The notes below the pieces were generated by a model. That model was not told the origin of the DNA, did no database searches, and saw nothing but the letters and a program-made list of their open reading frames with translations. Shown here in pieces: positions 2,030 through 21,195 of a stretch of 48,431 nucleotides of DNA; positions within the stretch are counted from its first letter, which is position 1; the number at the start of each line of letters is the position of its first letter. This stretch comes from a phage. The stretch lies in the NCBI GenBank assembly GCA_012646845.1, contig GCA_012646845.1_4707.1, one strand, 5' to 3'. The position numbers and the translations under genes were made by a program.

Positions 2030-2060
2030 CCCTTCCCCGGCCTTGGTGGCTAGGGAAGGG
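2030..2060 (-). terminator. hairpin CCCTTCCC/GGGAAGGG downstream of gene 2076..2540
   Basis: perfect 8-bp inverted repeat; no strong U-tract. Confidence 0.4.
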
Positions 2061-2075
2061 TATGTTTACGGGTGA

Positions 2076-2540: not shown

Positions 2541-2606
2541 TATTCTACCTCAATGTTTAACCGACACGTGTCCCCACTTAACAAGGGACACGATATCGTT
2601 GATTAA

Positions 2607-3101
2607 TTATTCTTCTGTGTTTTCATTGTCAGGATCGTAGTGGAATTCGAACAGCCCTGAACCGTCATGTCCGTTGATTGTGAGTATAACGGGCATATCG
2701 AATCCTCGGACACGCGAATGAAAACACTGTGCTAATTTTAGTTTGGCGTATGCCGCTATTTCATTGACAGCAATACACGATTCACCTGTTATACTCAGTA
2801 TAACGTCGATACTAACAATGTTGTCGTGCAACGCAAAACGCCAACGATCGATACGAGTATTATCTTTAGCGGGTGTCTCGTTGACGAGATAGACTTTATC
2901 GTCAACTGACAAAGCAGGGCTCCAGCAACGTTCGTTTATTAAATTCGCTTGGAGTTTTAGTATCGTCTGATCGATAATATCCCAACACGTAACCAGCGTG
3001 GTGTCAGGCACTGAACAGAGAAGGGCGAGCACTTTATCCTTTATTTTAAGTGCTTCCGCAGAGCGTCCGCAAATACCATGCATTTCAACCTTCTTATCCA
3101 T
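2607..3101 (-). CDS. hypothetical protein, tandem paralogue family
   Basis: ORF track; start set to ATG at 3101 preceded by AGAGGTGA; paralogous to 2076..2540. Confidence 0.65.
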   Translation of the reverse strand: MDKKVEMHGICGRSAEALKIKDKVLALLCSVPDTTLVTCWDIIDQTILKLQANLINERCWSPALSVDDKVYLVNETPAKDNTRIDRWRFALHDNIVSIDVILSITGESCIAVNEIAAYAKLKLAQCFHSRVRGFDMPVILTINGHDGSGLFEFHYDPDNENTEE

Positions 3102-3126
3102 ATTCACCTCTTTTTTAATCTAAATG

Positions 3127-3495
3127 TTAGTTGGGGTAGGATACTACTTGTTTACCATTTGGTGTATGCAGGATTACCGCTACCTCCAAAACGCGTTGTA
3201 CTGCACGTTCACGTATTTCATCGTAAATAAATAGTTTATGCGAAAAGTCTGCTGGTGTACTGACAACCGCATTGACTTCCACTCTATTCTCTACGTGGCG
3301 TACAACGATATGCTTCACGGGCCCTTCTTTAAGTGTAAGGCAATGCTCGGTAGTAAAACACCGATACTTGGGGCTCCATCTGTCGATATGTTCAAAGATA
3401 ATGGTGGCGATTTCTTTAGCGTCTTTTCTTGATCGTCTGAAATATCTATCAGTCCTATCAAGCATCGTGTTAGCGAGTTTAAAAGCCTTCTTCAT
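3127..3495 (-). CDS. hypothetical protein
   Basis: ORF track; AAGAGGGAGAT upstream of ATG. Confidence 0.6.
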   Translation of the reverse strand: MKKAFKLANTMLDRTDRYFRRSRKDAKEIATIIFEHIDRWSPKYRCFTTEHCLTLKEGPVKHIVVRHVENRVEVNAVVSTPADFSHKLFIYDEIRERAVQRVLEVAVILHTPNGKQVVSYPN

Positions 3496-3525
3496 ATCTC
3501 CCTCTTCTTAGCTACTTTAGGATGA

Positions 3526-4128
3526 TCACATGCTTTCTAGCATATTGACGATCATGGAACCCATACCGAAACTCGGTCTTTCACCGATGTACTCAGCAAG
3601 CTGGCGATGGACGTCTTTTGGATTTCCTTCTTCACCATCGGCGTCGATGTAAACCGAAAAAGAAAATGAATCGGAATCCACGCTGATAACCAGACGACGC
3701 TCATTGCGTTCCTTGAGTGTGTCGACAATAGCTGCTTTCAGTACCGCGATCGCGTTCATCGCGTGCAAGATATCCCCATCGGGTTTCGGCAGATCGATCT
3801 TTTCTTTCAGATCGATATTGATGTTGGTTACAATTGGGTTGAGGTCGACCTTGACATAATCGTTAGGGTACATGCGAATAATCGCACGATCGATATCTGA
3901 ACCGTAAAAGTCAACACGTGGCTTTAACACTTCTTTGTTTGGATCCATGTTTTCATCCATACCCGCCTGTAGAAAGCGTTCTACGTTATCCAGTTCACGA
4001 TAGATTGACGCTTCGATTTCTTTCAGATAGTTGGCTGCGGTTTCATGTTCTTTACGCAGCTCGTCTTTAAGGAGCTGTACGGTGGTTTCACTGGAACGAA
4101 TGCTGTTTGCGAATTGGGTAATTGACAT
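3526..4128 (-). CDS. hypothetical protein
   Basis: ORF track (TTG start at 4158); preferred ATG at 4128 with AAGGAA SD. Confidence 0.6.
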   Translation of the reverse strand: MSITQFANSIRSSETTVQLLKDELRKEHETAANYLKEIEASIYRELDNVERFLQAGMDENMDPNKEVLKPRVDFYGSDIDRAIIRMYPNDYVKVDLNPIVTNINIDLKEKIDLPKPDGDILHAMNAIAVLKAAIVDTLKERNERRLVISVDSDSFSFSVYIDADGEEGNPKDVHRQLAEYIGERPSFGMGSMIVNMLESM

Positions 4129-4176
4129 ATCGAATTCCTTAAATTCTCTTGAGTTCAATTAATGATGAAAAGCTGT

Positions 4177-4201
4177 AAAAAAGGGTGGGGCGAACCCCAC
4201 C
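4177..4201 (-). terminator. intrinsic terminator-like hairpin GGTGGGG-CGAA-CCCCACC followed by U-run on minus strand
   Basis: perfect 7-bp stem, tetraloop, A-run 4177-4182 on plus strand. Confidence 0.6.
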
Positions 4202-4226
4202 AAAACGTCAGACACACGCAGGAAAA

Positions 4227-4649
4227 TTAATTCAGTGACGTGTACAACGCATAACGACTATAGATCTCAACCGCTGGTCCGTTATGCGTTAACAGACCAT
4301 CTCGGTTGTAGTATTGGAAAAATGAATAACGTTTGTCGAAGTGATAAACGAAAGCAATGTCTTTGTCAAGACCTGTGATGCGCGGTCTGTTTTTATCTAG
4401 CAATGCTTTGACTTTTAACAGTGTTGCCGCACGTGCTTTAACATTAGGGATTAATCCATCACAGTCGATATAAACCGTGTAACCTGTTTCAGATGTTGCG
4501 ACGGTTGTATTGCGATTGATGCGGAAGATTTTTGTTTTGTATGTATCATCTTCAAGAATTGGGTTTTGTTTTTCGTATTTTCGTTTACGCAGAAATTCTA
4601 CAACGGTAATATAGTTAGCGGTGATATGTCCGGTTATAGCTTGTAACAT
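4227..4649 (-). CDS. hypothetical protein
   Basis: ORF track; conserved leader with AAGAGGA SD immediately upstream. Confidence 0.65.
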   Translation of the reverse strand: MLQAITGHITANYITVVEFLRKRKYEKQNPILEDDTYKTKIFRINRNTTVATSETGYTVYIDCDGLIPNVKARAATLLKVKALLDKNRPRITGLDKDIAFVYHFDKRYSFFQYYNRDGLLTHNGPAVEIYSRYALYTSLN

Positions 4650-4795
4650 CTTGACATCCTCTTATATTGGATTGATTACAGTTATCTTAAATAGGCGATA
4701 AGATATCTTGCTCTTATCACCTAGGTTGCGTTTTGTTAATAACAAAACGCATCGCCTTAGTGACCTATGTCACTAAGGTAATATAGCCGTGAAAT
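4650..4795 (-). promoter_or_regulatory. conserved promoter/leader element copy A: CTATATTAC motif, two inserted hairpins, conserved 28-nt RBS leader
   Basis: 4650-4677 and 4777-4794 are identical to 32967-32994 and 33039-33056; copy A carries an extra ~51 nt (4726-4776) forming two perfect hairpins. Confidence 0.45.
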
Positions 4796-4830
4796 AGACT
4801 GCGTTAACAAGAAATAAAACAGCATAAAAC

Positions 4831-4870
4831 CTCCTCCCCCATCCTTCAAGAGGACGGTGGGAAGAGGGAG
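4831..4870 (-). terminator. pyrimidine/purine-arm hairpin downstream of gene 4876..5277
   Basis: CCTCCTCCCCC...GGTGGGAAGAGGGAG imperfect inverted repeat (pairs with G-U in minus-strand RNA). Confidence 0.35.
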
Positions 4871-4875
4871 AGAGA

Positions 4876-5277
4876 TTAAATGTCGTGGACGGCATTGCCG
4901 TTTAACCAGCAATACAGCTTAACGCGACACGGATACCGCTTCGTTGCAGCAACCATTTCACCGCGTAAACGCTGGTAGATTTCATCCTGGTGTTCACGTT
5001 CAATGGGGTAATCAGCCCAGCATTCGATCATGACGTCACCATTAGTCAGAATCGTCGTACGCATCCTGTCCTGGACTCGACGATCTTTCCCGGCATTAGG
5101 GAAATACATCCCTTCAGTACGAATAAGGTCGCCACAGGGCATGACTAACCACTCATTCGTTTTGCCGGTATTCTTATAATCCATTACAGCTTGCATTGCG
5201 GTGTCAACGCTAAAAGAAACATAATTCCAAACGGGGGTCCAACGATAGATTGCGGGTTGTTCAAGTGTTTCGTTCAT
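4876..5277 (-). CDS. hypothetical protein
   Basis: ORF track; AGGAAA SD. Confidence 0.6.
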   Translation of the reverse strand: MNETLEQPAIYRWTPVWNYVSFSVDTAMQAVMDYKNTGKTNEWLVMPCGDLIRTEGMYFPNAGKDRRVQDRMRTTILTNGDVMIECWADYPIEREHQDEIYQRLRGEMVAATKRYPCRVKLYCWLNGNAVHDI

Positions 5278-5491
5278 GAGGCGCTTTTCCTATTTTTATT
5301 TTCTGCACAGGATAAATTCAACGGCATAAAGCCCTTCCCTGCCCTTATATGGGGCGGGAAGAGTTTATGACCGCAATGAGAATCTCTCACGACAAGCTCA
5401 CGACGATTATCGCATCACCCCGCGAGTGAGGGAGATCAGGATCACCTCCTACGTCGTAACGACAGTAATCCCGTTAACGTCGCCTTAGGCA

Positions 5492-6130
5492 TTATGCGAA
5501 GCGACGCATGTAACCTGCCAGATAGTTACGTGTATCGAAGTAAGCAATTTCAGGAATTGCGATATTAAGGTCGATAGCACGGATTTCAACTTGGCGACGG
5601 CTTTCATCATAGATCGCATCCATCAGACGCAGTACTGTCAGGAAAGCCATGCGGGTATGGTAGTCCAGCGGCATGTTGTCGATACCGCGATACAGATAAC
5701 GGTTTGCGTTAAATGCCCCTTCGCGGTTATCTTTCCAGATCTTCAGAATATCAGCAAAGGCGGTGCGGAAAACCTCAGGATTATCCACATCCAGTAACGC
5801 ACGGAAAGCAGACATTAAAGACCGCTGATGACGGATCAACGACTGCGGCGTTTGCGGCATGGTCGGACCCATTTCTTCAGCATATTTTTGGAACGGGGCA
5901 ACCAGGGTTGCGGCACGAGAAGCAACGATAGAAATAGCAGAGGATTCATTCACCGCTGGTTTCGCAGGCTTTTCTTCAACGGCGGTTTCCTTCTTCTCGA
6001 CAGCGACCGTTTCCGGTTGTGCTACAACGTTGCTGGTCGAAGCAGCAGCCACACCATTTTCCACGGTGGTCTCTACTGCTGTAATCTTTTCTTCCACTTG
6101 TGCGGAACGTTGGTCTTTATTCTTGCTCAT
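5492..6130 (-). CDS. hypothetical protein (acidic, low-complexity N-terminus)
   Basis: ORF track; AAAGGAAA SD. Confidence 0.6.
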   Translation of the reverse strand: MSKNKDQRSAQVEEKITAVETTVENGVAAASTSNVVAQPETVAVEKKETAVEEKPAKPAVNESSAISIVASRAATLVAPFQKYAEEMGPTMPQTPQSLIRHQRSLMSAFRALLDVDNPEVFRTAFADILKIWKDNREGAFNANRYLYRGIDNMPLDYHTRMAFLTVLRLMDAIYDESRRQVEIRAIDLNIAIPEIAYFDTRNYLAGYMRRFA

Positions 6131-6155
6131 GTCTATTTCCTTTCATTTAACAAGG

Positions 6156-7457
6156 TTAACTAATATAAAGTTCAGGATCGTAAGGCGCTAACGATACACT
6201 GGCGTTATGCATTGCTTTCATCATAGTGTTCATGAAAACGTTGTTTACACCGGTGATCTCTGCCCCGATCGCGTCTGGGGTTGGAGCCATCGCGTTACCG
6301 CAACAGGTAGCACAGTATTCCAACGGACCCGCTTTACAGCGCTGAGGATCACGTAACTTGATGGTTTGTCCTTCCAAGGAAGCGAATAATTCAGCATCAA
6401 TAAGTTTAAGCGCTGCGCCATCGATCATGTAACGGCCGACGAGCAGTTTATCTTTGATGTGGTCGCGGTTTACCGTGAACAGAATATGTTCTTGGGTACC
6501 GCAGTCGTCCATCGTGATCTTAAGGTTCTGTGTTGCACGTTGCGATTCTTTAGCCGTTTGTCCAGCTAAAGCGGTCAACGCACCACGCGAGAACGAACCA
6601 GCACGTGCACTGTTGTTGTACTCCGCCCAATGGTCGACGCGCATCCCTTCGGCCAGGCTGTGCGTGATAACGTTACGTTTACCAGGGTCAACGAAGTCGG
6701 CTTCAACCCCCATCATGATGTGTGTTTTCTTTCGAGTATTACCGAAACTCTTACCGGGGTTAATATAGAACCCTTCCGATTCATCGCCCTTAAAGGATTC
6801 CTTATCCATTTTGGTTAGCGTGGCTTCGAGTTTGATCAGTTCTTCAGGCGTAAACTTACCTTCCTCTTGCAAGCGCGCTAACTCTTTATCACGATAGGCA
6901 ATAATATCATCATCGACCGTTAACGCTTTATCGCTCATTGAAGGCACAATTAAGCGGTTAATGGCGGTTAATGCGCTGATATTGTTGGTGAATTTCTTCA
7001 CCTCGCTTGCGTACAGTGGACCAATCGGACGTTCGTTAGGATCGGGTATTCCCTCTTCGGGATCATCTGCTACGCGCGGTGCAATCAGTGATTCTAGTGT
7101 ACCGCTGGTTAACCGTCCTGCCTGATATTCAATCTGAATACCGAAAGCGTCATAAAGGACGTACATATTGAACAACGCTTCACCGAAGGTTGTGGTGGTT
7201 GTGTTCTTAACCGACGGTAGATCGCCAGGCGCAAGCTCCAACGGATCCCAGAAATTCAACAAGGGTTTTGTTGGTTCTGTTTCCCATTGGTGTTCTTCAC
7301 CGTCGATGGTAACCGTAACGATGTTACCTTGACGACGTAATTTAGGCTGATACTTCTCAGCGCCGCCTTCCGTAAAAGCAAATGCGTCGTTAATCCACTC
7401 AAGATAACGGTAGTGCCCTTCACGCAACGCGTAAAGGAAATAATCACGAGGTGTCAT
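6156..7457 (-). CDS. multisubunit RNA polymerase beta-prime-like subunit, C-terminal fragment
   Basis: ITMDDCGTQEHI matches bacterial beta-prime VTEDDCGTHEGI; downstream C-x2-C-x-G (CATCCGN) and AIGAE segments at the spacing seen in RpoC; AAGGAG SD. Confidence 0.6.
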   Translation of the reverse strand: MTPRDYFLYALREGHYRYLEWINDAFAFTEGGAEKYQPKLRRQGNIVTVTIDGEEHQWETEPTKPLLNFWDPLELAPGDLPSVKNTTTTTFGEALFNMYVLYDAFGIQIEYQAGRLTSGTLESLIAPRVADDPEEGIPDPNERPIGPLYASEVKKFTNNISALTAINRLIVPSMSDKALTVDDDIIAYRDKELARLQEEGKFTPEELIKLEATLTKMDKESFKGDESEGFYINPGKSFGNTRKKTHIMMGVEADFVDPGKRNVITHSLAEGMRVDHWAEYNNSARAGSFSRGALTALAGQTAKESQRATQNLKITMDDCGTQEHILFTVNRDHIKDKLLVGRYMIDGAALKLIDAELFASLEGQTIKLRDPQRCKAGPLEYCATCCGNAMAPTPDAIGAEITGVNNVFMNTMMKAMHNASVSLAPYDPELYIS

Positions 7458-7470
7458 GTAACAACTCCTT

Positions 7471-8343
7471 TTAAACGTGGGTCAGGTCACCGTGACGTGA
7501 AACGAACTCTGATAACGCTCGAGTTGCTTCTTTGGATTCTTCAGCCATCGGGAAGTTTGTGGTAACAAGTTCTCGTAGGACAGGAATGATTTCGTTATCT
7601 TCAAGATCGGAAGCCAACGCGAATGCGATCAGTTCTTGGGTGTACGCATACGGCTGCTGACGTAATGCGGCAAGCTGATTCCGACACTGCGACATTAGCA
7701 GGTCCAGTGGAACCGCTATCGTACCCCCTTCATCAATATACTGACCGAATACCGGTGGGAACGCATCGCTGATTACACGAATTCGTCGACGGATGCGATC
7801 AGGAATCTGGACGTTTTCTTCATCAGCGATATTTTCGCTGTCTTTCTCCAGCTTCTTGGTTAACACCTGCTGGATACGTGGGAGCAGGCTTGAATGCACG
7901 AAACTGATTAATGATGCTACGCCCGCAGCATCGACACCGTAAATATAATGCACGCATTCCGCTAGCGCTTCAGCTGTGGTGTAGTCTTCATCTTCAACGA
8001 TGGCGAGTAGAAAAGCGGTATCGTCATGTGTTTCCAGGTCTAATAACGTAGACGCTAACGCATGAAGATACTTCAGGCTATCCAGGGATAGTTGTCCTTC
8101 GTTAATCCGTATCCCGAAGGCAAGCAATTGTTGTTTATAAAGTTCGATACACCCGTTTGTTAAAATGACATCTAATTCGTTTAAATCGTATTGTTCCCCA
8201 GCACCTGACAACATCGTACTACAAAACGTTTCCAGTTGCTCGCATTTAAAATCTTGGTATAAACGATACATGCAGTGCTGTAACAGCGTACGCCTTGTTT
8301 CAGGGATCTTACCTTCTAACAAAGCCAAGACGGAATCAATCAT
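7471..8343 (-). CDS. hypothetical protein
   Basis: ORF track; ATG at 8343 preferred over GTG at 8349. Confidence 0.55.
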   Translation of the reverse strand: MIDSVLALLEGKIPETRRTLLQHCMYRLYQDFKCEQLETFCSTMLSGAGEQYDLNELDVILTNGCIELYKQQLLAFGIRINEGQLSLDSLKYLHALASTLLDLETHDDTAFLLAIVEDEDYTTAEALAECVHYIYGVDAAGVASLISFVHSSLLPRIQQVLTKKLEKDSENIADEENVQIPDRIRRRIRVISDAFPPVFGQYIDEGGTIAVPLDLLMSQCRNQLAALRQQPYAYTQELIAFALASDLEDNEIIPVLRELVTTNFPMAEESKEATRALSEFVSRHGDLTHV

Positions 8344-8439
8344 ATCCACTCCGATGCGGTAAATGTCTACTAGCTCTCATAATCTATTGAAGAAACTACC
8401 AGCTTACGCCAACTTAGATTAATCAGGAGTAACCATCCC

Positions 8440-8913
8440 ATGCCAGTTTCATCCAAACCAAGAAAAAAATCCGTAGGGAACCCTAAAGCTCAGGAAACAA
8501 CAGCGATTCGTTGGGACGAGTTACGTGAACCTATCGAAAACTGCGAATTGTTATTAGGTACCCTGGGTGCAGCTATTTACCAAGCGACGCAACCCTGTCG
8601 TTTACGATTAACCCAAAACAAACGTGATGAGTTCGTTGCGTTATCAACGAGCACGAATAAAGATCTGACCGAACTTCAAACCGAGTTGACGACGATCAAG
8701 AACTCCATTACGCCGATGTACGGTAAAGAAGTTGATGAACAAAGTATTCTGTTACAGTACAACTACGGGATGTCGTTAATGAACATCCTGGAACGCGCAT
8801 CCGATATTCTGCGTCCTGACGTTGCACGCCTAAGCCAACTGCGTGTCGAAGGGATGGAGAACCAGATCCGATTCGCTAACAGTGTTAAATCTCAAGGAGC
8901 CACCGAAGCATGA
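8440..8913 (+). CDS. hypothetical protein
   Basis: ORF track; ATG at 8440, stop overlaps next start (ATGA). Confidence 0.6.
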   Translation: MPVSSKPRKKSVGNPKAQETTAIRWDELREPIENCELLLGTLGAAIYQATQPCRLRLTQNKRDEFVALSTSTNKDLTELQTELTTIKNSITPMYGKEVDEQSILLQYNYGMSLMNILERASDILRPDVARLSQLRVEGMENQIRFANSVKSQGATEA

Positions 8914-10568
8914 GCGAACAAGAAAAAGAAGTCGTGACGAATCAGGAAGCCACCGAACGTTCAGAGTCGTCCGTTGAAACTACGATTCCGGCAAGTGAGG
9001 GTAAAGACGAAGCTGTCACTACCGAAGGAGATGTAGCGGCTCCAGAAGCAACCCGTGAAGAAGAACCCTCACATCCACCGCTGGTTGATTTCTCGAAGGC
9101 GACGATACGTTTCCAATGCGAAGACATTCGTCCTAAGAGCCCAAAGAAAACAAAACGTCAGCCATTGGTGTTACCGCTGTATTCTCCGCGTGTACAGACA
9201 GCGTATTACAAGGAATACATCAACGAAGCAATGGATACCGTACAAGCCATTGTCGCTCAACGCGGTAAACCTTCGGACGAGCAATTTGATAAATTCAGTA
9301 AAGCGGTAGTGCAATCGGTTGCTGATGGGCAATACCAACCGCGTGGGCCAGCTCATGATCGTGCGTTGGAACGTAAGGGCAGTCAGTGGACTAACGTACC
9401 CGTAGACTCATCGGGTGTTGGTCGTGTTATTCCTGGCATCCCGCAACCGAACCATATTCCTGATGATGTCGAAGCGCCGTTGACAGGAACCGATGCAATC
9501 TATTTTGCTATCCGTAATACGAAATCAGGTGCGCCTGCTGTAATGCCGTTATGGCATAGCGGTATTAAGCTGCAGTTCAATCCACCGTCAAATGAACGTG
9601 TCGCAATTATGCATGAACGTATTGCACGCGATAAAATCCTGGGTGGACGTGATAGTACCGGTTTCCTGTTTTCGGCAACCTCGATTATCACCATGAAACA
9701 TGCTATCGAATTAGCGTTAGAATGCTGTTACATGGCCAACGTACCGAACCTGGATATCCAGCGTTTGAAAGACATTATTCCGGTTACCGATGTTCCAGCA
9801 CTGTTGTTGAACGTGCTGGTAACCATGTACCCGTACGGGTATCCTTACGTGCAGACCTGCTATCAGAATCCAGAAACCTGCGACTATCGTGTTGAAGATA
9901 CCGTAAGCTTTGCGAAGCTCTATCAAGTTGACAACAGTGCGATTACCAAACGTATGCGACAGATCATGACCGAAGGTCCGGTCATGACCGATGAACTTTT
10001 GCGTGAGTATGCAAACGAACTGGGTGAAACAAACTCCCGTACGCTGGATCTGTCTGACAACGGTTCGGTTATCATTGAGCTTGAAGTACCGAAGATCTCA
10101 CGTCAGATTGCCATGGGCGAACGCTGGTTAAGCGATACGCTGGAAGATCTGCGTGATATTCTATCGCGTCCGTCAATGACTGAAGAAGAGCGTGATCGTG
10201 TTATTCGTGAACGTCAGTTCTATAGCTGGATGCGTCAGTATGATGCATGGATCAAATCGATGCATGTGTCGGTAAACGGTACCATGCGTCGTGTGAGCGA
10301 TGCGGATACGGCAACGGTATTAGCACAGCTGTCTCGTGACAGCGACCTTCGTGAACGCTATATCGATGGGTTGATGCAATTCATCGGCGATTCGACGATT
10401 GCGCTCGCGGCAATGCCTGCCTGGAAATGTCCGAAATGTAATACCGATATTGCTGACAATCTGCGTGACCAGAAATACTACGATCTGATTGCTTTGGATG
10501 TACCCCAGCTTTTTTTTACCCTAAACTCCGTCCAATCTCTTCAGGAGGGGATGGACGCGGTATTCTAA
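8910..10568 (+). CDS. hypothetical protein, 552 aa, acidic low-complexity N-terminus
   Basis: ORF track; AAGGAG SD; no motif recognised with confidence. Confidence 0.65.
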   Translation: MSEQEKEVVTNQEATERSESSVETTIPASEGKDEAVTTEGDVAAPEATREEEPSHPPLVDFSKATIRFQCEDIRPKSPKKTKRQPLVLPLYSPRVQTAYYKEYINEAMDTVQAIVAQRGKPSDEQFDKFSKAVVQSVADGQYQPRGPAHDRALERKGSQWTNVPVDSSGVGRVIPGIPQPNHIPDDVEAPLTGTDAIYFAIRNTKSGAPAVMPLWHSGIKLQFNPPSNERVAIMHERIARDKILGGRDSTGFLFSATSIITMKHAIELALECCYMANVPNLDIQRLKDIIPVTDVPALLLNVLVTMYPYGYPYVQTCYQNPETCDYRVEDTVSFAKLYQVDNSAITKRMRQIMTEGPVMTDELLREYANELGETNSRTLDLSDNGSVIIELEVPKISRQIAMGERWLSDTLEDLRDILSRPSMTEEERDRVIRERQFYSWMRQYDAWIKSMHVSVNGTMRRVSDADTATVLAQLSRDSDLRERYIDGLMQFIGDSTIALAAMPAWKCPKCNTDIADNLRDQKYYDLIALDVPQLFFTLNSVQSLQEGMDAVF

Positions 10569-10630
10569 TCGATCCGCGATACGGGTTACACGACGGGCAA
10601 CTTGTTCGTAATGATGAAAAAATCTGGGAA

Positions 10631-10990
10631 TTGCTATTAGCGCGTAAAGGCGACGGTGGCATGAAACTGAACATCGAAATGGGTATTGCGTACGATACCA
10701 TGTTTGGCTTGTACGATCGCGTCAGCGACTGGACGCCGTTGAAATGGGTTGCTCAGCATCCCGCTGAAGATCCCTGGGACAGATTAGGAATTAAACCCTT
10801 AATCGAAGATTATGTCCGATTCGGTATTAAAGAGTTCATGACGCTGGATGCGTTTTTACAAGCACCGTATCCTTACGCGCAAACGGTACTCAAAATCGCA
10901 CAAGACGAACTGCGGAAACGTAGTGCGGTACTGGACGACGATGAGGACAAGTTACGACGAGAAGAAGAACGTTTACGAAACGGAAAATAA
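10631..10990 (+). CDS. hypothetical protein (start uncertain: TTG 10631 or ATG 10661)
   Basis: ORF track; frame open upstream into previous gene. Confidence 0.4.
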   Translation: MLLARKGDGGMKLNIEMGIAYDTMFGLYDRVSDWTPLKWVAQHPAEDPWDRLGIKPLIEDYVRFGIKEFMTLDAFLQAPYPYAQTVLKIAQDELRKRSAVLDDDEDKLRREEERLRNGK

Positions 10991-10991
10991 A

Positions 10992-11501
10992 ATGGCGAGA
11001 TTTACCAGTTTGATTGGGTTGGATATTTGGGAAACACCGGCCGACGTTCGGGTTATTCCTGTTAACACCGTCGGTGTGATGGGACGTGGTCTTGCCAAGC
11101 AGGCAGCCGATCGTGTGCCCGGTCTTCTTGAAGCGTACCGTAAGCAATGTCAAGATGGGTTTAAGGTGGGCGAAGTCGTGTCGTATCAACACGGTGATAA
11201 CGATCAACTCACCTACGTGCTGTTTCCATCAAAATCGGATTGGCGTGAAAGAACACGACGCGAGTATATCGTTAACGGTTTACTGGCGTTGAAAGCGTGG
11301 TTATTGGAGCTTCAGTTCGAAAGAGACGGCTTCTCATACCACCGTCCGGCTGAACCGTTGATTGTCGCAATTCCTCCGGTTGGTTCTGGTTGCGGTAATA
11401 TCGGTTACGGACAATCCGAAACAATCCAGCCTCAGTGGGTACGCGCACAAATCAAACAGTATCTTGCCACCGTACCGAACGTTCATTTCTACTTGTTCTA
11501 A
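10992..11501 (+). CDS. macro-domain protein (ADP-ribose binding/hydrolase family)
   Basis: VIPVNTVGVMGRGLAKQ and IVAIPPVGSGCGNIGYG resemble the two conserved macro-domain glycine-rich loops; ATG at 10992 in ORF-track frame. Confidence 0.65.
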   Translation: MARFTSLIGLDIWETPADVRVIPVNTVGVMGRGLAKQAADRVPGLLEAYRKQCQDGFKVGEVVSYQHGDNDQLTYVLFPSKSDWRERTRREYIVNGLLALKAWLLELQFERDGFSYHRPAEPLIVAIPPVGSGCGNIGYGQSETIQPQWVRAQIKQYLATVPNVHFYLF

Positions 11502-11517
11502 TGCAGCGGTAACATAA

Positions 11518-11549
11518 CCCTCCTCCAACCCGTAAGGGAAGGAGGAGGG
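11518..11549. terminator. hairpin CCCTCCTCC...GGAGGAGGG with nested CCC-GTAA-GGG, between convergent genes
   Basis: perfect 9-bp inverted repeat read directly. Confidence 0.5.
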
Positions 11550-11566
11550 CTTATGCTGTTATGCTA

Positions 11567-11941
11567 TTAATGTTCGTTCCAGACGGCATCTTCCGGTGGA
11601 ACAATAGGATCTTTCTTCGGCATTGACGGCACTTCATGACGATGTTTACGGAACTGTCCGTCGATAACTTCACGAAGCCGGTACGCATCAACCCACGTTG
11701 ATTTATTGAACAGCTCCAACGTCACAGTTAATCGCGTTCTTGACATTGAATAGCTTTTCTTTGCAATCAAATCGGGATAATTCAGTTGAGCGAACCATGC
11801 CCGTATTTGTGCTTCGGTAAAAGCGATGCTGTAATAACTAAGTTTACCGTCATTAAAATCGTGCGCGTGGGTGTAACGTCCAGCGTAACGCCAAACAAGA
11901 TGCACATTCAGATCTATCCATGGTGGGGTGGTATCAGCCAT
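11567..11941 (-). CDS. hypothetical protein
   Basis: ORF track; GAGGGT SD. Confidence 0.6.
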   Translation of the reverse strand: MADTTPPWIDLNVHLVWRYAGRYTHAHDFNDGKLSYYSIAFTEAQIRAWFAQLNYPDLIAKKSYSMSRTRLTVTLELFNKSTWVDAYRLREVIDGQFRKHRHEVPSMPKKDPIVPPEDAVWNEH

Positions 11942-11950
11942 GCGTTACCC

Positions 11951-12520
11951 TCAACGATTCTTCATCACTTTACCCAGGCTTTCGATATTATCCCAAAAGC
12001 GATTTTTACTTGGCGCATCGCCAACGATAACCGACATCAAATCGCGACGTTCACGACTGATGATGCCCTGCGATTTCCAGATCACCATCGTCCAGCAAGC
12101 AGCCAGAACAAACAGATGGTTAATACTCGGTTTGGTTTGTGCGATGAACGCAAGCCATGCCCAGATACCGGTGTATACTACCGTCACTAAAAAGAGAGAG
12201 ATTGTTGCAACGACAACAACGAAGTTTTGGATGGCTGGCTGATTGGCGTTATCCTGAAAAGCGGTAAGATCAGGAAGATTACCTTCAACGGAACTCGTAT
12301 CATCGATTTCCAATTCTTCGATTTCTTTTCGTATGTCGGGAGCTAATCCGGCATCATCAAGATGCTTCTTTAACCGCTGAATACTTAATCGTTGTCCGAC
12401 AGGGATATTAATGTTGTCGTAACTATTAAGCGCATCAACCAGGGAGCGTCCGTCAACGAGAACCAAGCTCGCAGTACCCATCGTCTGCGGTTTTATTTTG
12501 TAAAGGTCTTTTACTTTCAT
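11951..12520 (-). CDS. hypothetical membrane protein
   Basis: ORF track; hydrophobic segments (VVVVATISLFLVTVVYTGIWAWLAFI). Confidence 0.6.
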   Translation of the reverse strand: MKVKDLYKIKPQTMGTASLVLVDGRSLVDALNSYDNINIPVGQRLSIQRLKKHLDDAGLAPDIRKEIEELEIDDTSSVEGNLPDLTAFQDNANQPAIQNFVVVVATISLFLVTVVYTGIWAWLAFIAQTKPSINHLFVLAACWTMVIWKSQGIISRERRDLMSVIVGDAPSKNRFWDNIESLGKVMKNR

Positions 12521-12541
12521 GTAGACACCACCTCCAACGTG

Positions 12542-15154
12542 TTATACGTCCGGCGTAAAATCAAAAGGAACGTCCGTACGAATGATATCATAACGTTTTC
12601 CTAAGAAATAGAACTCTTCGGGAACCAGACCGGGAACGATGCTATCGCCGATGAACTGTGGGTATGCCCAGATGTACTGAGTGAGTCCTTCGAACATATC
12701 CAGGTTATTTGCGTGGTTACCCATGATACGTTTCCAGAGTTCGCGTTTATACGGTGTTTTAACATCGAACCCATAAAGCGGTGCGAGGTCTTCACCAGGA
12801 ACAAATCCCAGGTAATAGTGGATCTGACTAACCGGGAAACCAAGCGTATCTCGCGGAATGGTGATCGCTTGCTCAGCCTTGGTGACATGCGTCTCAATAA
12901 TCCAGTCGTAGCACTCCGAATAGAACCGATCGAATTTCTCTGGATTATACCACGCTTTGGGAAGATTCAGTTTCTCCGTGAACGCGTTCGACATGATCGT
13001 CGGCAAGAACGGAAGAACGCCGGTTTTGATCTGTGTGTATTTCGATTTTACCCGATTGACTAGATTCCAGCAACTGTATCCTAATTGATCGTTGCAGAAC
13101 TCAACGTAGAGATCGTAATCCCCACCCGATAATGGATTATTAATATCGCCGATGTCTGCCGCATATTTGTTGGGGTATCGGTTATTGAAAGCCAGTTTGG
13201 TTTGGTAATCGTAAATGCACGGTTTATTGTTCTTCGTGTTAATCCACCACCAGGGTTCACCCACCTGCACACAAATGTCTTGGACATGCGGGTAGATGAT
13301 ATCAGCAAACGCGGTTAACACATCCCCTAACCACGCCATCGCGTGTTGGTTGCATGGCGACAACAACCAAGACGGCGGCGTATATCCGGTTGCTGCTATG
13401 TTTCCTTCCCAATCCTGCTGCGCCCACTCGAACGGGCATGCCGTACTCATCAATTCGTAACTTAAACTGATTGTAACAGAGAAATGGTGTTTTGCAGCGT
13501 ATGCGGCGAAAGCTTCATGCCATGCGATACAGGGTGGGTTGAGTACATCTGTGGTGTTCACCAGTAACTTACTCGCACTTGGTGTCCAGACAGTATCGTA
13601 GAAATGCGACATTCCAACATAGTGCACTAATTCATCTTGATATCCCGCATAAACCAGGTTCTCAAATACGCGTTCCGGCGTGATATTGTAATGGTCGTCA
13701 TAAGCGGTTATCGCACGAAGCTCGTGTGGTGTACATTGGTGACGATTAACCGTCATTTCCTGATACACCCCATCAATAGGAAGAATCTCGAGGGTTAAAC
13801 AGAGGTCGATCGGTGTTTCCAGGTAGGTCGTTTCTGTAGCACCTTCCTTATAATGTCGAGAACTCATGCTGAACATCAACGACGTGACCGATTCGAGTTC
13901 GATAGGTTCGTCAGCATAGAACCCCGCCATTGCGTCGTTGAAATCGATCGTTACGATTGCGCTTGTACCGTCTTCAGAGACGTCGGTGGCGTATCGGGTT
14001 AATGAGATATACTGACGGCTATCGTCTTTGTGTACGACGGTTAAAACCGGCGGGTTTTCGGTATCTGCAAAGTTCCGCTGGTCACCAGTAAACGTGATCT
14101 TGGCTTTAAAGATCAAACCGAGCAACGACGTCATGGGATCATACGCAACACAACCATGATCTAGCGTATCCGTTGTCCGCCATTCTATCCCTACCAACCC
14201 GTTAGCGGTATGGCATCGCATATACGCATTAAGTGTCATGTCTTCACTGACAACCGCGAAGTTCTCTGTAGATTGACCATTGATAATCCAATACATCGGT
14301 TGCCAGAGGTTACGCGTGCCTTTTGCGTAGCGGTAGGTTGGTGCACCTTTAGGGTTGCCGTTATTGAGATGGAATACAGCCGTACCTTGGTAATGATCGT
14401 TCGTGTTAATCGGAACACTGTACGCGTCGCCGAGGTCCGTACGTTCGACCTTCGTGACAGTTGCGTTTTCAAACAGCCCACGTAGTGTAGGAAGACCAAT
14501 GTCATCAGGCGCGTTTTCTCGGCGAATCGCGTCCGCGATGCGGTGGGCTAGGGCGGGGTAAATGGTCTCACCCTGCTGTAGGTTTGCAAGACCTACAAAG
14601 CGATCGGGGTTGATACCAGCAATCAATAACTCGACATCGCCCTTCGTTCTATCGTCATGGAGGTATTTCAGTCCAGTAAGATCAAGATGTTGAATTAACG
14701 ACAACAGATTGTACTTACGGTTTTCAACAGTCAGTGCAAGATCACCCGCCCAAACCAAACTTCCCTCATCCGCCGTTACTCTAACGGATTGGCGGCCTGT
14801 GGTGGACGTTGTTGTCGTTTTATTTAATTGTCCTTGTAGGAAGTCGGTTGCGAGGTCAAAGGCAACGCCGTAACGGTCAGCGACCGCCTGCATGATTTCA
14901 CGTAACTGGGTATCTTCTTCAATGATGATCTTGACGGGTATTCCCAAGAACGCCTTGGCGAGGTCTCGCTTAACCATCGAGACGAATACGGATTTGTAAT
15001 ATCGGCCTCCATCTTTCCCTTTAAAAAGAATGGAGGTTGTTTCGGGTGACGATAGAACACGTGCAAATACAACATCGTCGAAAGTAAGAGAAAGTCCGTT
15101 TTTCTCGTTGGTTAATCTTAGTATTTCATTTTGCGCGGTTTCATGTAACTTCAT
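12542..15154 (-). CDS. tail fibre/tailspike-like protein with shared N-terminal anchor module
   Basis: 870 aa; N-terminal ~170 aa homologous to 21881..23635, 21196..21723 and 27286..28116 (RDLAKAFLGIP; NKTTTTSTTGRQSV...LTGLKYLHDDRTKG). Confidence 0.7.
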   Translation of the reverse strand: MKLHETAQNEILRLTNEKNGLSLTFDDVVFARVLSSPETTSILFKGKDGGRYYKSVFVSMVKRDLAKAFLGIPVKIIIEEDTQLREIMQAVADRYGVAFDLATDFLQGQLNKTTTTSTTGRQSVRVTADEGSLVWAGDLALTVENRKYNLLSLIQHLDLTGLKYLHDDRTKGDVELLIAGINPDRFVGLANLQQGETIYPALAHRIADAIRRENAPDDIGLPTLRGLFENATVTKVERTDLGDAYSVPINTNDHYQGTAVFHLNNGNPKGAPTYRYAKGTRNLWQPMYWIINGQSTENFAVVSEDMTLNAYMRCHTANGLVGIEWRTTDTLDHGCVAYDPMTSLLGLIFKAKITFTGDQRNFADTENPPVLTVVHKDDSRQYISLTRYATDVSEDGTSAIVTIDFNDAMAGFYADEPIELESVTSLMFSMSSRHYKEGATETTYLETPIDLCLTLEILPIDGVYQEMTVNRHQCTPHELRAITAYDDHYNITPERVFENLVYAGYQDELVHYVGMSHFYDTVWTPSASKLLVNTTDVLNPPCIAWHEAFAAYAAKHHFSVTISLSYELMSTACPFEWAQQDWEGNIAATGYTPPSWLLSPCNQHAMAWLGDVLTAFADIIYPHVQDICVQVGEPWWWINTKNNKPCIYDYQTKLAFNNRYPNKYAADIGDINNPLSGGDYDLYVEFCNDQLGYSCWNLVNRVKSKYTQIKTGVLPFLPTIMSNAFTEKLNLPKAWYNPEKFDRFYSECYDWIIETHVTKAEQAITIPRDTLGFPVSQIHYYLGFVPGEDLAPLYGFDVKTPYKRELWKRIMGNHANNLDMFEGLTQYIWAYPQFIGDSIVPGLVPEEFYFLGKRYDIIRTDVPFDFTPDV

Positions 15155-15176
15155 TGAAAACCTCAGCCCTTTAGAA

Positions 15177-15818
15177 TTAGATGTACTGCTTACCGCCCAC
15201 GAAGGAAGTTAGCCAGTTCCCACTGACAAGCTGTGATACCCAGCCAGGCACTGCCCTGCCATTCTGGCTCATGACATTACCACACCAGCCAGGGAATCCG
15301 GGACGGATATAATAGAAAGTTAAATTGTAGAGATGGCAATTCCATACCGCAACGTTATGTTTACCAGAAACCGCTTTAAAGACAAACGCAACGGGTAAAG
15401 GCGACGATAACAATTCGGTCACAGGGACGGCCGACCAGTTCGCATTCGCATTCCATGGTTGCCAGGTATGGCTACGCGAGTCGCAAAATACGTTACCGTT
15501 GTTACCGCGCCCACCCGCATGCCACCACAGCGACGGACTCATGTTCTTAAGTGAGGTAAATTGCTGTGGTGGAATATTAGGAATAATAACAGGGTTGGTA
15601 CCTTGCCCATGTTTCTTTTCTTTTGCGTTTACATACCCACTTATCGATTCGAGGTATTTGACACCAGGATAATTGTTCTGGACTTGTGTCGCAATATCAC
15701 GGACATCAAACGTCCAGCAGATCATGGTGTTGTAGTAAGCATCGGTGTTGTCGTACCAAGCGTTACCATCTTGTAAACGTGCGCCACTATTCGGTGTTTT
15801 ATCTGTGCTTATAGCCAT
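15177..15818 (-). CDS. hypothetical protein, paralogue sharing C-terminal module with 15925..16590
   Basis: C-terminus GFPGWCGNVMSQNGRAVPGWVSQLVSGNWLTSFVGGKQY nearly identical to neighbour; ~100-bp near-identical DNA. Confidence 0.65.
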   Translation of the reverse strand: MAISTDKTPNSGARLQDGNAWYDNTDAYYNTMICWTFDVRDIATQVQNNYPGVKYLESISGYVNAKEKKHGQGTNPVIIPNIPPQQFTSLKNMSPSLWWHAGGRGNNGNVFCDSRSHTWQPWNANANWSAVPVTELLSSPLPVAFVFKAVSGKHNVAVWNCHLYNLTFYYIRPGFPGWCGNVMSQNGRAVPGWVSQLVSGNWLTSFVGGKQYI

Positions 15819-15924
15819 GTTATTGTCCTATACTACGATGATTGAGATATCGAATGTCGGACGCTTGGTGCCGTCTGGTAGTACATACAGAAACACCCAC
15901 AGATAAAACAATAACTCCCATCAA

Positions 15925-16590
15925 TTAAATTGATGTTAGATACTGCTTACCTCCGACAAACGATGTCAACCAGTTCCCACTGACAAGCTGTGATACCCAG
16001 CCAGGCACTGCCCTGCCATTCTGGCTCATCACGTTACCGGCCCATCCCGGAAAACCAGGTCGGAAAATATATACTTGAATATGTGTTAAAGCGTTATCAT
16101 TACCTCCACCAACAGCAACATTACGACGTCCGGATGATGGGAAATATTCTTTTAAGAACAGGGGATCGTTTGCCAATAAAGAAGCAGGCCAAGGATTAGC
16201 GGATGCGTCAACATCGAATTCGGTCCATCGCCATTTGCGCCCAGTATCGAACCAGGTTGACGTACCACCGCCACGCACCGCAAGATTGCGTGCGTCACGG
16301 GCACTGTATATTGATTCGATGTTGCGCCACCCACCTTTTGCGACGTTTGCCGCATAGCAAATCGCATTACCACCATTCTTCTTTTCGTAAACGGTTCGTT
16401 TGATATGAACACGGTCGATAAACGCTTCACCGTATTTGTTGACGAGTGTTTGCGCGATATCACGAAGATCGTGCATATGAAAGGCGATGTCTTCGTTGTG
16501 GAACCACGTTGTCGGGTTCCAAACGGTGCCGTTTGGTTCGGCACACATCGATCTGATGTTGTTGCGTTGATTAATCGCGATAAAGCCCAT
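15925..16590 (-). CDS. hypothetical protein, paralogue of 15177..15818
   Basis: start set to ATG 16590 (GAGGTGGACC SD), aligns with N-terminus of paralogue. Confidence 0.6.
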   Translation of the reverse strand: MGFIAINQRNNIRSMCAEPNGTVWNPTTWFHNEDIAFHMHDLRDIAQTLVNKYGEAFIDRVHIKRTVYEKKNGGNAICYAANVAKGGWRNIESIYSARDARNLAVRGGGTSTWFDTGRKWRWTEFDVDASANPWPASLLANDPLFLKEYFPSSGRRNVAVGGGNDNALTHIQVYIFRPGFPGWAGNVMSQNGRAVPGWVSQLVSGNWLTSFVGGKQYLTSI

Positions 16591-16653
16591 GGTCCACCTC
16601 GTTCCTGTTCTCGAAGGAAATTTCATACGATGACGCCATAACAGCTCCCCCAT

Positions 16654-16695
16654 CCTCCCTTCCCTTACGGGTTGGGAGGATGTAAGGGAAGGAGG
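16654..16695 (-). terminator. long hairpin CCTCCCTTCCCTTAC...GTAAGGGAAGGAGG downstream of lipoprotein gene
   Basis: ~14-bp inverted repeat read directly. Confidence 0.5.
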
Positions 16696-16705
16696 AACTA
16701 CTTAA

Positions 16706-17209
16706 TTACTCGCTGACAACCTCAACGGAATTGGGATCGGCGATCAGCGCACGGTCGGTAGAACAATTGAAGAAGACCATGCCAACACCATCGCCGTTCG
16801 AGTTCAGGGTTGAACTTACGTAAGACAATGCTGGTTTATTCATACGGTAGAAGCGTTCGTTGGTGGTGGTATTGAACCCCAGATCAACGTAGTCTTTCAC
16901 CGTGGTGTACAACTGTGTGGACTCGAAAACGGTTACCGGAGAGTCAACGGTAAACTGACTACCTTCGTCCACTACCAGAACTTTATCGTTCCAGATTTCA
17001 GTGGTTGAGAACTTCGGTTTCCAGTGTTCGAATTCCTGGGTTGCTCCCCAGCAGGAATACACAGCGAGATCGCTGTTCTTCTCAACAGGTTTTAACCCCA
17101 CCAGTTGTGTCAGACCTTTATCCAGATTCGGTAAGCCTTCCAGTGTAGCACACCCACCCAGAGAAAGTACCATCAACATACCGAGAATAATCGCGCAAAG
17201 TTTCTTCAT
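16706..17209 (-). CDS. lipoprotein (signal peptide with lipobox LGGC)
   Basis: MKKLCAIILGMLMVLSLGGCATLEG; AAGGAAA SD. Confidence 0.75.
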   Translation of the reverse strand: MKKLCAIILGMLMVLSLGGCATLEGLPNLDKGLTQLVGLKPVEKNSDLAVYSCWGATQEFEHWKPKFSTTEIWNDKVLVVDEGSQFTVDSPVTVFESTQLYTTVKDYVDLGFNTTTNERFYRMNKPALSYVSSTLNSNGDGVGMVFFNCSTDRALIADPNSVEVVSE

Positions 17210-17253
17210 CGTCGGATTTCCTTATGTGTTAACGGAAGTGATTTCCATAGTAA

Positions 17254-21188: not shown

Positions 21189-21195
21189 GGTGTTT

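What the first reader, a model, noticed from the sequence alone, without database searches (positions are those of the whole stretch)
8440..11501. Plus-strand gene island ending in a macro-domain protein
Four co-directional plus-strand genes interrupt an otherwise minus-strand region and are bounded by a divergent intergenic region (8344-8439) and a convergent hairpin (11518-11549). The last gene encodes a macro domain (VIPVNTVGVMGRGLAKQ ... IVAIPPVGSGCGNIGYG). Phage macro domains are candidate erasers of ADP-ribosylation, for example against DarT-like host toxins or to reverse phage-directed ADP-ribosylation. The upstream 552-aa protein with an acidic low-complexity N-terminus is unassigned.
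Basis: partly seen in the sequence, partly recalled or inferred. Interest (0 to 1): 0.6.

Follow-up and report, generated by a model that had tools for sequence, protein, structure and literature searches.

The report
Known anti-DarT macrodomain gene (AdfM)
The last gene of this block is a near-identical copy of a published jumbo-phage enzyme (AdfM) that strips ADP-ribose off DNA to defeat the bacterial DarT toxin. The three genes before it are a conserved but still unexplained core block of nucleus-forming phages, so the finding is real but already explained.

Summary
Four co-directional plus-strand genes (8440-11501) sit between minus-strand genes, bounded by a 96-nt divergent intergenic region and a strong convergent hairpin.

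The window is a close relative of Escherichia phage Goslar (95.8% nt identity here), a nucleus-forming chimallivirus.

The macro protein (10992-11501, 169 aa) is 97.6% identical to Goslar gp83. Morgan et al. 2026 (Cell Rep, PMC13309987) list Goslar gp83 as a homolog of AdfM, the PhiKZ gp104 anti-DarT factor shown to remove DarT2 ADP-ribose from DNA. It is 31% identical to PhiKZ gp104. Its best sequence and fold matches are DarG macrodomains, and it keeps the catalytic Asn and Lys (N25, K81).

The 552-aa protein is chimallivirus core gene cg18 (PhiKZ gp077). Its function is unknown. It has four invariant cysteines, no ADP-ribosyltransferase signature, and was detected in Goslar virion mass spectrometry.

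The small gene–cg18–small gene unit, divergent from a virion RNA polymerase subunit gene, recurs in most chimalliviruses examined. AdfM lies elsewhere in PhiKZ and PhiPA3, so the macro gene is an accessory add-on here, not a partner of cg18.

Verdict: correct reading, already known, low novelty.

The parts
8344..8439 (.). Divergent intergenic region between gp079-like (cg19, minus strand) and gp080-like (plus strand). Presumed site of divergent phage-RNAP promoters. AGGAG ribosome-binding site 10 nt before ATG 8440.
   Evidence: Sequence. 96/96 identical to Goslar while flanking genes differ by 2-6%. No sigma-70-like site inside it and no motif repeated elsewhere in the window. The promoters themselves are not identified.
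8440..8913 (+). gp080-like 157-aa protein, function unknown. Its stop overlaps the start of the next gene (ATGA), which suggests translational coupling.
   Evidence: 100% aa identity to Goslar gp080, with 9 synonymous and 0 non-synonymous codon changes. No family hit above threshold. Same position as PhiKZ gp78 / PhiPA3 gp075 / Noxifer gp074, but no detectable sequence similarity to them.
8910..10568 (+). 552-aa chimallivirus core protein cg18 (Goslar gp081 = PhiKZ gp077 = PhiPA3 gp074 = RAY gp267). Variable acidic N-terminus, conserved core about residues 140-540, four invariant cysteines (C317, C324, C507, C510). Function unknown.
   Evidence: 96.9% identical to Goslar gp081; 24% identical to PhiKZ gp077 (E 4e-28); 160 phage records. 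phrog_4585, E 8e-67. Listed as cg18 in Table S3 of PMC10299810. 1307 cluster representatives at E<=1e-3. Invariant residues. No PDB or Pfam relative. AF2 model failed, pLDDT 35.7. Goslar virion mass spectrometry: 49% coverage, about 15-35 copies per virion.
10661..10990 (+). gp082-like 109-aa protein (an alternative TTG start lies at 10631). It is the conserved small gene downstream of cg18. Function unknown.
   Evidence: 98.2% identical to Goslar gp082; the Noxifer homolog lies directly downstream of the Noxifer cg18 gene. In a 9-sequence comparison it is similar to Noxifer gp072 (8e-15), PhiPA3 gp073 (1e-9) and Deimos-Minion 272 (3e-5), and through PhiPA3 gp073 it links to PhiKZ gp76.4 (7e-10). 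phrog_12109, 7e-9.
10992..11501 (+). AdfM ortholog: a stand-alone DarG-type macrodomain of 169 aa, predicted to be an ADP-ribosyl-DNA glycohydrolase. Catalytic N25 and K81; glycine-rich loops G28/G31/G33 and G131/G133/G135.
   Evidence: 97.6% identical to Goslar gp83. 31% identical to PhiKZ gp104 over the full length, E 1e-24. PDB sequence hits: T. aquaticus DarG 5M31/5M3E, 5.6e-15. PADLOC DarG 4e-22 and NCBIfam antitoxin_DarG 8e-23, macro part only. AF2 pLDDT 85.5. Foldseek top hits are DarG macrodomains, TM 0.79/0.87. Invariant N25 and K81.
11518..11549 (.). GC-rich hairpin between convergent genes. Probable bidirectional terminator, with no classical U-tract.
   Evidence: -33.7 kcal/mol (plus strand) and -34.7 kcal/mol (minus strand), z -5.1 and -7.5, 0 of 200 shuffles as stable. 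Two compensatory pair changes relative to Goslar keep a perfect 9-bp stem. Annotated as a terminator in Goslar. Missed by the U-tract scan.
6156..8343 (-). Context: the divergently transcribed partners. gp079-like = cg19 (7471-8343) and the virion RNA polymerase subunit gp078-like = cg20 (6156-7457).
   Evidence: Goslar annotation. Table S3 of PMC10299810. Goslar gp78 is named as a vRNAP subunit in bioRxiv 10.64898/2026.04.21.720040. The same divergent layout is seen in PhiKZ, PhiPA3, Noxifer, Deimos-Minion, RSL2 and pir03.

Best explanation
The region holds two separate things in one plus-strand transcription unit of a Goslar-like nucleus-forming jumbo phage.

(1) The last gene encodes AdfM, a stand-alone DarG-type macrodomain. 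By homology to PhiKZ gp104, it should hydrolyse the ADP-ribose that host DarT2 toxins attach to thymidine in single-stranded phage DNA. That would keep replication and packaging going in hosts that carry DarTG2. Shown here: orthology, fold and catalytic residues. Inferred from the PhiKZ/PhiPA3 experiments: enzyme activity, import into the phage nucleus and the anti-DarTG2 phenotype.

(2) The first three genes are a conserved chimallivirus block: a small variable protein, core protein cg18 (about 500-550 aa, with a probable four-cysteine metal site), and a small conserved partner. In most chimalliviruses examined the block is transcribed divergently from the cg19 / virion-RNA-polymerase-subunit genes. 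Its function is unknown. My best guess is a late-expressed, virion-associated factor. The macro gene was appended to this unit only in the Goslar lineage, and a shared hairpin terminates it.
For: Identity of the phage:
- 95.8% nt identity to Goslar across the region.

Macro protein:
- 97.6% identical to Goslar gp83, which PMC13309987 Fig. 1B lists as an AdfM homolog.
- PhiKZ AdfM de-ADP-ribosylates DarT2-modified DNA. It rescues DarT2 toxicity, localises to the phage nucleus, and its loss costs 3-6 logs of titre on DarTG2 hosts.
- Window protein vs PhiKZ gp104: 31% identity, E 1e-24, end to end.
- Best PDB sequence hits are DarG macrodomains.
- Best folds are 5M3E, 5M31, 5M3I and 7OMU, ahead of TARG1 and Poa1p.
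- N25 and K81 are invariant across 14 homologs.

Block:
- cg18 identity.
- The same layout in six other chimallivirus genera.
- Homology of the downstream small gene.
- Purifying selection on all four genes.
- AdfM is unlinked to cg18 in PhiKZ and PhiPA3.
- gp081 was detected in Goslar virion preparations at about the same level as vRNAP subunit gp078.
Against: - No experiment exists for the Goslar-type protein itself. It is only 31% identical to the tested PhiKZ enzyme, and it carries two insertions (about residues 105-122 and 135-146, the latter with pLDDT below 50) that DarG and PhiKZ AdfM lack.
- Substrate specificity among TARG1/DarG-like macrodomains cannot be read from sequence.
- For cg18 the virion evidence is weak. 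The same preparation also contained chimallin, ChmC, PhuZ and thymidylate synthase, which the authors attribute to co-purifying assemblies. PhiKZ gp77 is not annotated as structural, whereas gp79-81 are.
- Co-transcription of the four genes is inferred from spacing and the single terminator. It was not shown.
Confidence: 0.8

Rival explanations
1. The macro protein acts on a substrate other than DarT-modified DNA. Candidates are ADP-ribosylated proteins or RNA, or small molecules such as ADP-ribose-1''-phosphate or O-acetyl-ADP-ribose. This is what the older annotations imply ('Poa1p-like', 'phosphatase', 'O-acetyl-ADP-ribose deacetylase').
For: RefSeq annotates Goslar gp083 as Macro_Poa1p_like. 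phrog_335 is labelled 'phosphatase'. Some metagenomic homologs are named O-acetyl-ADP-ribose deacetylase. TARG1, which acts on proteins and nucleic-acid ends, is the next-best fold.
Against: DarG macrodomains beat TARG1 and Poa1p by 4-7 orders of magnitude in Foldseek E-value, and with higher TM-scores. The DarG-type FP(S/T)K..WR lysine motif is conserved. The PhiKZ ortholog has demonstrated DNA de-ADP-ribosylation and an anti-DarTG2 phenotype.
Confidence: 0.13
2. The four genes form a writer-eraser module. The 552-aa protein would be a phage ADP-ribosyltransferase, like the virion-packaged T4 Alt, and the macro protein would reverse or limit its action.
For: Adjacency in one transcription unit. 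gp081 is found in virion preparations at tens of copies, as T4 Alt is (my own knowledge, not tested here).
Against: - No ART family hit in Pfam, NCBIfam, PADLOC or PHROGs.
- A profile of 105 homologs finds nothing in the PDB.
- The family's invariant residues are G246, D294, C317, C324, Y367, W406, C507, C510 and F535. There is no invariant Glu, His, Arg or Ser to form an H-Y-E or R-S-E triad.
- cg18 is in 160 phage records, including chimalliviruses whose macro gene is tens of kb away. About half of chimalliviruses have no AdfM at all.
Confidence: 0.03
3. The plus-strand block is a horizontally acquired island or mobile insertion in a minus-strand gene array.
For: Strand switch on both sides. 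The macro gene has a patchy distribution across unrelated phages, including phiEco32-like podoviruses.
Against: GC content (0.44-0.48) is the same as the surroundings. Three of the four genes belong to a block with the same divergent layout in PhiKZ, PhiPA3, Noxifer, Deimos-Minion, RSL2 and pir03. No repeats, integrase or tRNA are present. Only the macro gene itself may have been acquired or relocated.
Confidence: 0.04

Closest known systems
AdfM (anti-DarT factor macro; PhiKZ gp104, PhiPA3 gp108, Asesino gp217, Goslar gp83), Morgan et al. 2026, Cell Rep, PMC13309987
   Same: Chimallivirus-encoded, stand-alone macrodomain of about 160-170 aa. End-to-end homology to PhiKZ gp104 (31% identity, E 1e-24). 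Catalytic Asn and Lys conserved. 97.6% identical to Goslar gp83, which the paper itself aligns as an AdfM.
   Different: The Goslar-type protein was not assayed in that paper. It has two insertions relative to PhiKZ AdfM and DarG. Its gene sits at the end of the cg18 block rather than at the PhiKZ/PhiPA3 location.
DarG antitoxin macrodomain of DarTG2 toxin-antitoxin systems (T. aquaticus 5M31/5M3E, M. tuberculosis 5M3I)
   Same: Best sequence and structural match (E 5.6e-15; TM 0.79/0.87, rmsd 1.9 A). Shared VNTVGVMGxG and FP(S/T)K..WR motifs with the catalytic N and K.
   Different: It lacks the C-terminal DarT-binding half of DarG: it matches only positions 7-146 of the 338-position NCBIfam model and scores 81 bits against a cut-off of 250. 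There is no adjacent DarT gene. It is phage-encoded and acts as a counter-defence rather than as an antitoxin partner.
Chimallivirus core gene cg18 (PhiKZ gp077 / RAY gp267), block 3 of Prichard et al. 2023, Cell Rep, PMC10299810
   Same: The 552-aa protein is 96.9% identical to Goslar gp081, which is listed as cg18. Same neighbourhood next to cg19 and the vRNAP subunit cg20.
   Different: Nothing differs. The family has no assigned function in the literature I could search.
TARG1 / Poa1p-type macrodomains
   Same: Same macro fold, and the same lysine-based catalytic arrangement as TARG1.
   Different: Clearly weaker matches (Foldseek E 3e-10 and 3e-7, against 2e-14 for DarG). The older 'Poa1p-like' and 'phosphatase' labels are superseded.

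Membership tests
AdfM (chimallivirus anti-DarT macrodomain) | Encoded by a chimallin-encoding (nucleus-forming) jumbo phage | tested here: met
   The window is 95.8% identical to Goslar in this region and carries the chimallivirus core genes cg18, cg19 and cg20.
AdfM (chimallivirus anti-DarT macrodomain) | Full-length homology to PhiKZ gp104 and orthology to a listed member | tested here: met
   31% identity, E 1e-24 over residues 1-162. 97.6% identity to Goslar gp83, which is named in Fig. 1B of PMC13309987.
AdfM (chimallivirus anti-DarT macrodomain) | DarG-like macro fold with the catalytic Asn (PhiKZ N23 / Taq N22) and Lys (PhiKZ K78 / Taq K80) | tested here: met
   N25 and K81 are invariant in alignment A2. 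AF2 pLDDT 85.5. Top Foldseek hits are 5M3E, 5M31 and 5M3I.
AdfM (chimallivirus anti-DarT macrodomain) | Removes DarT2-made ADP-ribose from ssDNA and protects the phage from DarTG2 | not testable with these tools
   Shown only for PhiKZ (enzyme assay and genetics) and PhiPA3 (genetics) in PMC13309987.
AdfM (chimallivirus anti-DarT macrodomain) | Imported into the phage nucleus (PicA-dependent) | not testable with these tools
   Shown for the Asesino, PhiKZ and PhiPA3 proteins. No import signal is recognisable from sequence.
DarG antitoxin (type II TA, DarTG) | Two-domain protein: N-terminal macrodomain plus C-terminal DarT-binding domain | tested here: not met
   169 aa. It matches only positions 7-146 of 338 in NF048014 (81 bits against a cut-off of 250) and 8-143 of 329 in PADLOC DarG.
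DarG antitoxin (type II TA, DarTG) | Encoded next to a DarT toxin gene | tested here: not met
   The neighbours are gp082-like and gp084-like hypothetical proteins. PADLOC finds no DarT among the four genes.
ADP-ribosyltransferase (hypothesis for the 552-aa protein) | ART fold with a conserved H-Y-E or R-S-E catalytic triad | tested here: not met
   No ART hit in four HMM libraries. No PDB relative by profile. No invariant Glu, His, Arg or Ser among 105 homologs. The fold itself is untested because the AF2 model failed (pLDDT 35.7).
Chimallivirus core gene cg18 | Homology to Goslar gp081 / PhiKZ gp077 and position beside cg19 and cg20 (vRNAP subunit) | tested here: met
   96.9% identity to Goslar gp081 and E 4e-28 to PhiKZ gp077. 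Table S3 of PMC10299810. Synteny.

The most novel reading that the evidence does not exclude
The unexplained part is the conserved block, not the macro gene. Core protein cg18 would bind a metal through four invariant cysteines. Its acidic N-terminus, rich in (S/A/G)-x-E motifs, may be a substrate for the prohead protease. Together with its small partner (gp082-like), cg18 could be a virion-packaged factor delivered with the DNA that works alongside the virion RNA polymerase in the earliest stage of infection. Its gene is paired divergently with a vRNAP subunit gene in most chimalliviruses examined, and in Goslar virion preparations it is as abundant as that subunit.
Probability: 0.2. Interest if true: 0.5.

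Novelty: already known. Interest (0 to 1): 0.2.

Why it matters
The macro gene confirms that Goslar-type E. coli/Salmonella jumbo phages carry the published AdfM counter-defence. This matters for predicting host range on DarTG2-bearing enterobacteria, but it adds no new principle.

The more useful by-product concerns cg18. It is a large, deeply conserved family (1307 cluster representatives) that still has no function, no structural relative and no confident model. It always travels with the same small partner gene next to a virion RNA polymerase subunit gene. That makes it a well-defined target for future work on early infection by nucleus-forming phages.

Tried and rejected
- AF2 of the 552-aa protein with a 7-sequence alignment gave pLDDT 35.7, too poor for a fold search. 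Both AF2 jobs were then spent.
- The word-indexed homolog search found only 6 close relatives, and repeating it with the alignment added none.
- A 105-sequence profile against PDB sequences gave only a chance hit (RIB43A, E 0.11).
- gp080 vs PhiKZ gp78 gave nothing by BLASTP, a small HMM or hhalign. Only positional equivalence can be claimed.
- The sigma-70 promoter scan and a k-mer search for a repeated promoter motif in the 8344-8439 region found nothing. These phages use their own RNA polymerases.
- Rfam and tRNA scans of the window were empty.
- Literature searches for PhiKZ gp77, PhiPA3 gp74, 201phi2-1 gp136 and cg18 found no functional study.
- The (S/A/G)-x-E motif count in the gp081 N-terminus (4 in 60 aa, against 6 in the other 492) mostly reflects its acidity. 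I treat it as a lead only.
Full report
**1. What is there**

The window is a close relative of Escherichia phage vB_EcoM_Goslar, a nucleus-forming jumbo phage (Chimalliviridae). Positions 8300-11600 match Goslar 90221-93527 at 95.8% identity over their whole length.

- 8440-8913, 157 aa, Goslar gp080
- 8910-10568, 552 aa, gp081
- 10661-10990, 109 aa, gp082 (an upstream TTG lies at 10631)
- 10992-11501, 169 aa, gp083

Every long ORF from 1543 to 8349 and from 11567 to 27272 is on the minus strand, so the strand switch is real.

All four are under purifying selection relative to Goslar:

| Gene | Synonymous codon changes | Non-synonymous |
|---|---|---|
| gp080 | 9 | 0 |
| gp082 | 6 | 2 |
| macro (gp083) | 16 | 4 |

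In gp081, residues 145-552 are identical at the protein level although the gene is 94.4% identical at DNA level. Its indels are confined to the acidic N-terminus.

**2. Boundaries**

The 96-nt divergent intergenic region 8344-8439 is 96/96 identical to Goslar. It ends in an AGGAG ribosome-binding site. I could not identify promoters in it, which is expected for a phage that uses its own RNA polymerases.

The hairpin at 11518-11549 is strong, at -33.7 and -34.7 kcal/mol on the two strands (z -5.1 and -7.5). Compared with Goslar, its 9-bp stem carries two compensatory pair changes (CCCTCCTCC/GGAGGAGGG against CCCTCTCCC/GGGAGAGGG). That is direct evidence the structure is selected. It has no U-tract. 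Goslar annotates it as a terminator.

gp080 and gp081 overlap by ATGA, and the gp082 stop lies one base before the macro ATG. This is consistent with a single transcription unit, though that remains an inference.

**3. The macro protein**

Pfam Macro is above threshold. Sequence evidence points to the DarG type:
- The best solved-structure sequence hits are the DarG macrodomains of Thermus aquaticus (5M31/5M3E, E 5.6e-15) and M. tuberculosis (5M3I).
- PADLOC DarG (4e-22) and NCBIfam antitoxin_DarG (8e-23) match, but only over the macro half of those models and far below the equivalog cut-off.

Structural evidence agrees. An AF2 model from 14 sequences is confident (pLDDT 85.5). Its best Foldseek matches are the same DarG structures (E 2e-14, TM 0.79/0.87, rmsd 1.9 Å), followed by T. 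africanus DarTG, then TARG1, then Poa1p.

N25 and K81 are invariant across homologs down to 33% identity. They align with the catalytic N22/K80 of T. aquaticus DarG and N23/K78 of PhiKZ gp104.

**4. This is a published system**

Morgan et al. [quoted passage not shown] They showed that:
- it removes DarT2-made ADP-ribose from a DNA oligonucleotide, and this is reduced by N23A;
- it neutralises DarT2 toxicity;
- it localises to the phage nucleus;
- it is needed for PhiKZ and PhiPA3 to grow on DarTG2 hosts, where deletion costs 3-6 logs of titre.

Their Fig. 1B alignment includes Goslar gp83 (YP_009820768.1). The window protein is 97.6% identical to that protein and 31% identical, end to end, to PhiKZ gp104 (E 1e-24).

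The 169-aa form begins MARF, matching MAEF in PhiKZ and MANF in 47%-identical homologs.

Activity, localisation and phenotype have not been tested for the Goslar-type protein. It also has two insertions relative to DarG and PhiKZ AdfM, one of them modelled with low confidence.

**5. The other three genes**

The 552-aa protein matches PhiKZ gp077 and PhiPA3 gp074, and is found in 160 phage records, all of them jumbo phages of about 220-320 kb. Table S3 of Prichard et al. 2023 (PMC10299810) lists Goslar gp081 = PhiKZ gp077 = RAY gp267 as core gene cg18. It sits next to cg19 (Goslar gp079) and cg20 (gp078, a virion RNA polymerase subunit).

An exhaustive HMMER search found 1307 cluster representatives, 547 of them at E<=1e-30. 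Across 105 homologs the invariant residues are G246, D294, C317, C324, Y367, W406, C507, C510 and F535. The four cysteines suggest a metal site built from two distant CxnC pairs.

There is no Pfam, NCBIfam or PADLOC family, and PHROGs gives only families of unknown function. The family has no relative of known structure. The invariant set contains none of the Glu, His, Arg or Ser residues that an ADP-ribosyltransferase catalytic triad requires. My AF2 model failed (pLDDT 35.7), so the fold remains open.

In the Goslar virion mass spectrometry of bioRxiv 10.64898/2026.04.21.720040, gp081 has 49% coverage and an estimated 15-35 copies per virion. That is the same as vRNAP subunit gp078. The authors note, however, that the preparation also carried chimallin, ChmC and PhuZ assemblies.

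**6. Synteny**

The layout is the same in PhiKZ, PhiPA3, Noxifer, Deimos-Minion, RSL2 and Vibrio phage pir03:
- minus strand: vRNAP subunit, then cg19;
- plus strand: a small protein abutting or overlapping the cg18 start, then cg18, then a small protein;
- after that, a return to the minus strand.

Huxley has the same genes, but all in one direction.

The downstream small proteins are homologous. Goslar-type gp082 matches Noxifer gp072 (8e-15), PhiPA3 gp073 (1e-9) and Deimos-Minion 272 (3e-5). PhiPA3 gp073 links to PhiKZ gp76.4 (7e-10). These E-values come from a nine-sequence comparison.

The upstream small proteins of PhiKZ, PhiPA3 and Noxifer are clearly related to each other (E 1e-14 to 2e-27), and Deimos-Minion 274 only weakly (E 0.003). 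Goslar-type gp080 shows no detectable similarity to any of them.

The macro gene is not part of this block elsewhere. PhiPA3 gp108 lies 41 kb from gp074, and PhiKZ gp104 is likewise distant from gp077. Only about half of chimalliviruses have AdfM. DarG-like stand-alone macro genes also occur in unrelated phages such as phiEco32-like podoviruses.

So the 'island' is a conserved core block with an accessory counter-defence gene appended in the Goslar lineage. It is not a writer-eraser module and not a foreign insertion. GC content matches the surroundings.

**7. Verdict**

It is already in the literature for this very ortholog group, so novelty is low.

The residual open question is the function of cg18 and its partners. 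Here I can offer only a weakly supported guess: a metal-binding, late or virion-associated factor linked to the virion RNA polymerase.

Noticed in passing
window 10941-10991 (Goslar NC_048170 92868-92918): The RefSeq start of Goslar gp083 lies 51 nt upstream and overlaps gp082. Alignment with PhiKZ gp104 and with 47%-identical homologs supports the shorter 169-aa form starting at window 10992 instead.
   Followed up: yes
proteins P0002 and P0007: Near-identical copies of gp081 (87%) and of the macro protein (99%) are recorded in NCBI assemblies labelled Salmonella enterica serovar Panama (a 180-kb contig) and serovar Muenchen. Goslar-like phages therefore turn up in Salmonella isolate assemblies, and the window may come from such a source. 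A preprint on persistent virulent phages in bacterial isolates (10.1101/2024.12.31.630880) mentions Goslar often; I did not read it.
   Followed up: no
window 17650-21300 (minus-strand 1199-aa ORF; Goslar gp090 tail fibre): The tail-fibre region is much more diverged from Goslar (about 84-88% identity, with internal repeats that cross-match at 65-72%) than the rest of the aligned region (about 94%). This hints at a different host range.
   Followed up: no
window 1559-3520 vs Goslar locus L001 2073-4276: There is a patch of low identity (81%) and small gene-content differences: about 600 nt of Goslar are absent around gp070, and window 3145-3520 is unaligned. This lies in the array of small minus-strand hypothetical genes upstream of the capsid decorator gene.
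   Followed up: partly
window 5492-6130 (minus strand): This is the ortholog of Goslar gp77, which the 2026 Goslar cryo-EM preprint identifies as an outer capsid decorator protein. Window 12542-15154 (870 aa) is the ortholog of gp86, one of the DUF7941 'filament cloud' host-recognition proteins.
   Followed up: partly
window 8910-9090 (gp081 residues 1-60): The acidic N-terminus (17 Asp/Glu, 4 Lys/Arg) is the only part of gp081 that differs from Goslar, through indels. It holds 4 of the protein's 10 (S/A/G)-x-E motifs, the pattern cut by the PhiKZ-type prohead protease (my own knowledge). It may be a cleaved targeting propeptide.
   Followed up: partly
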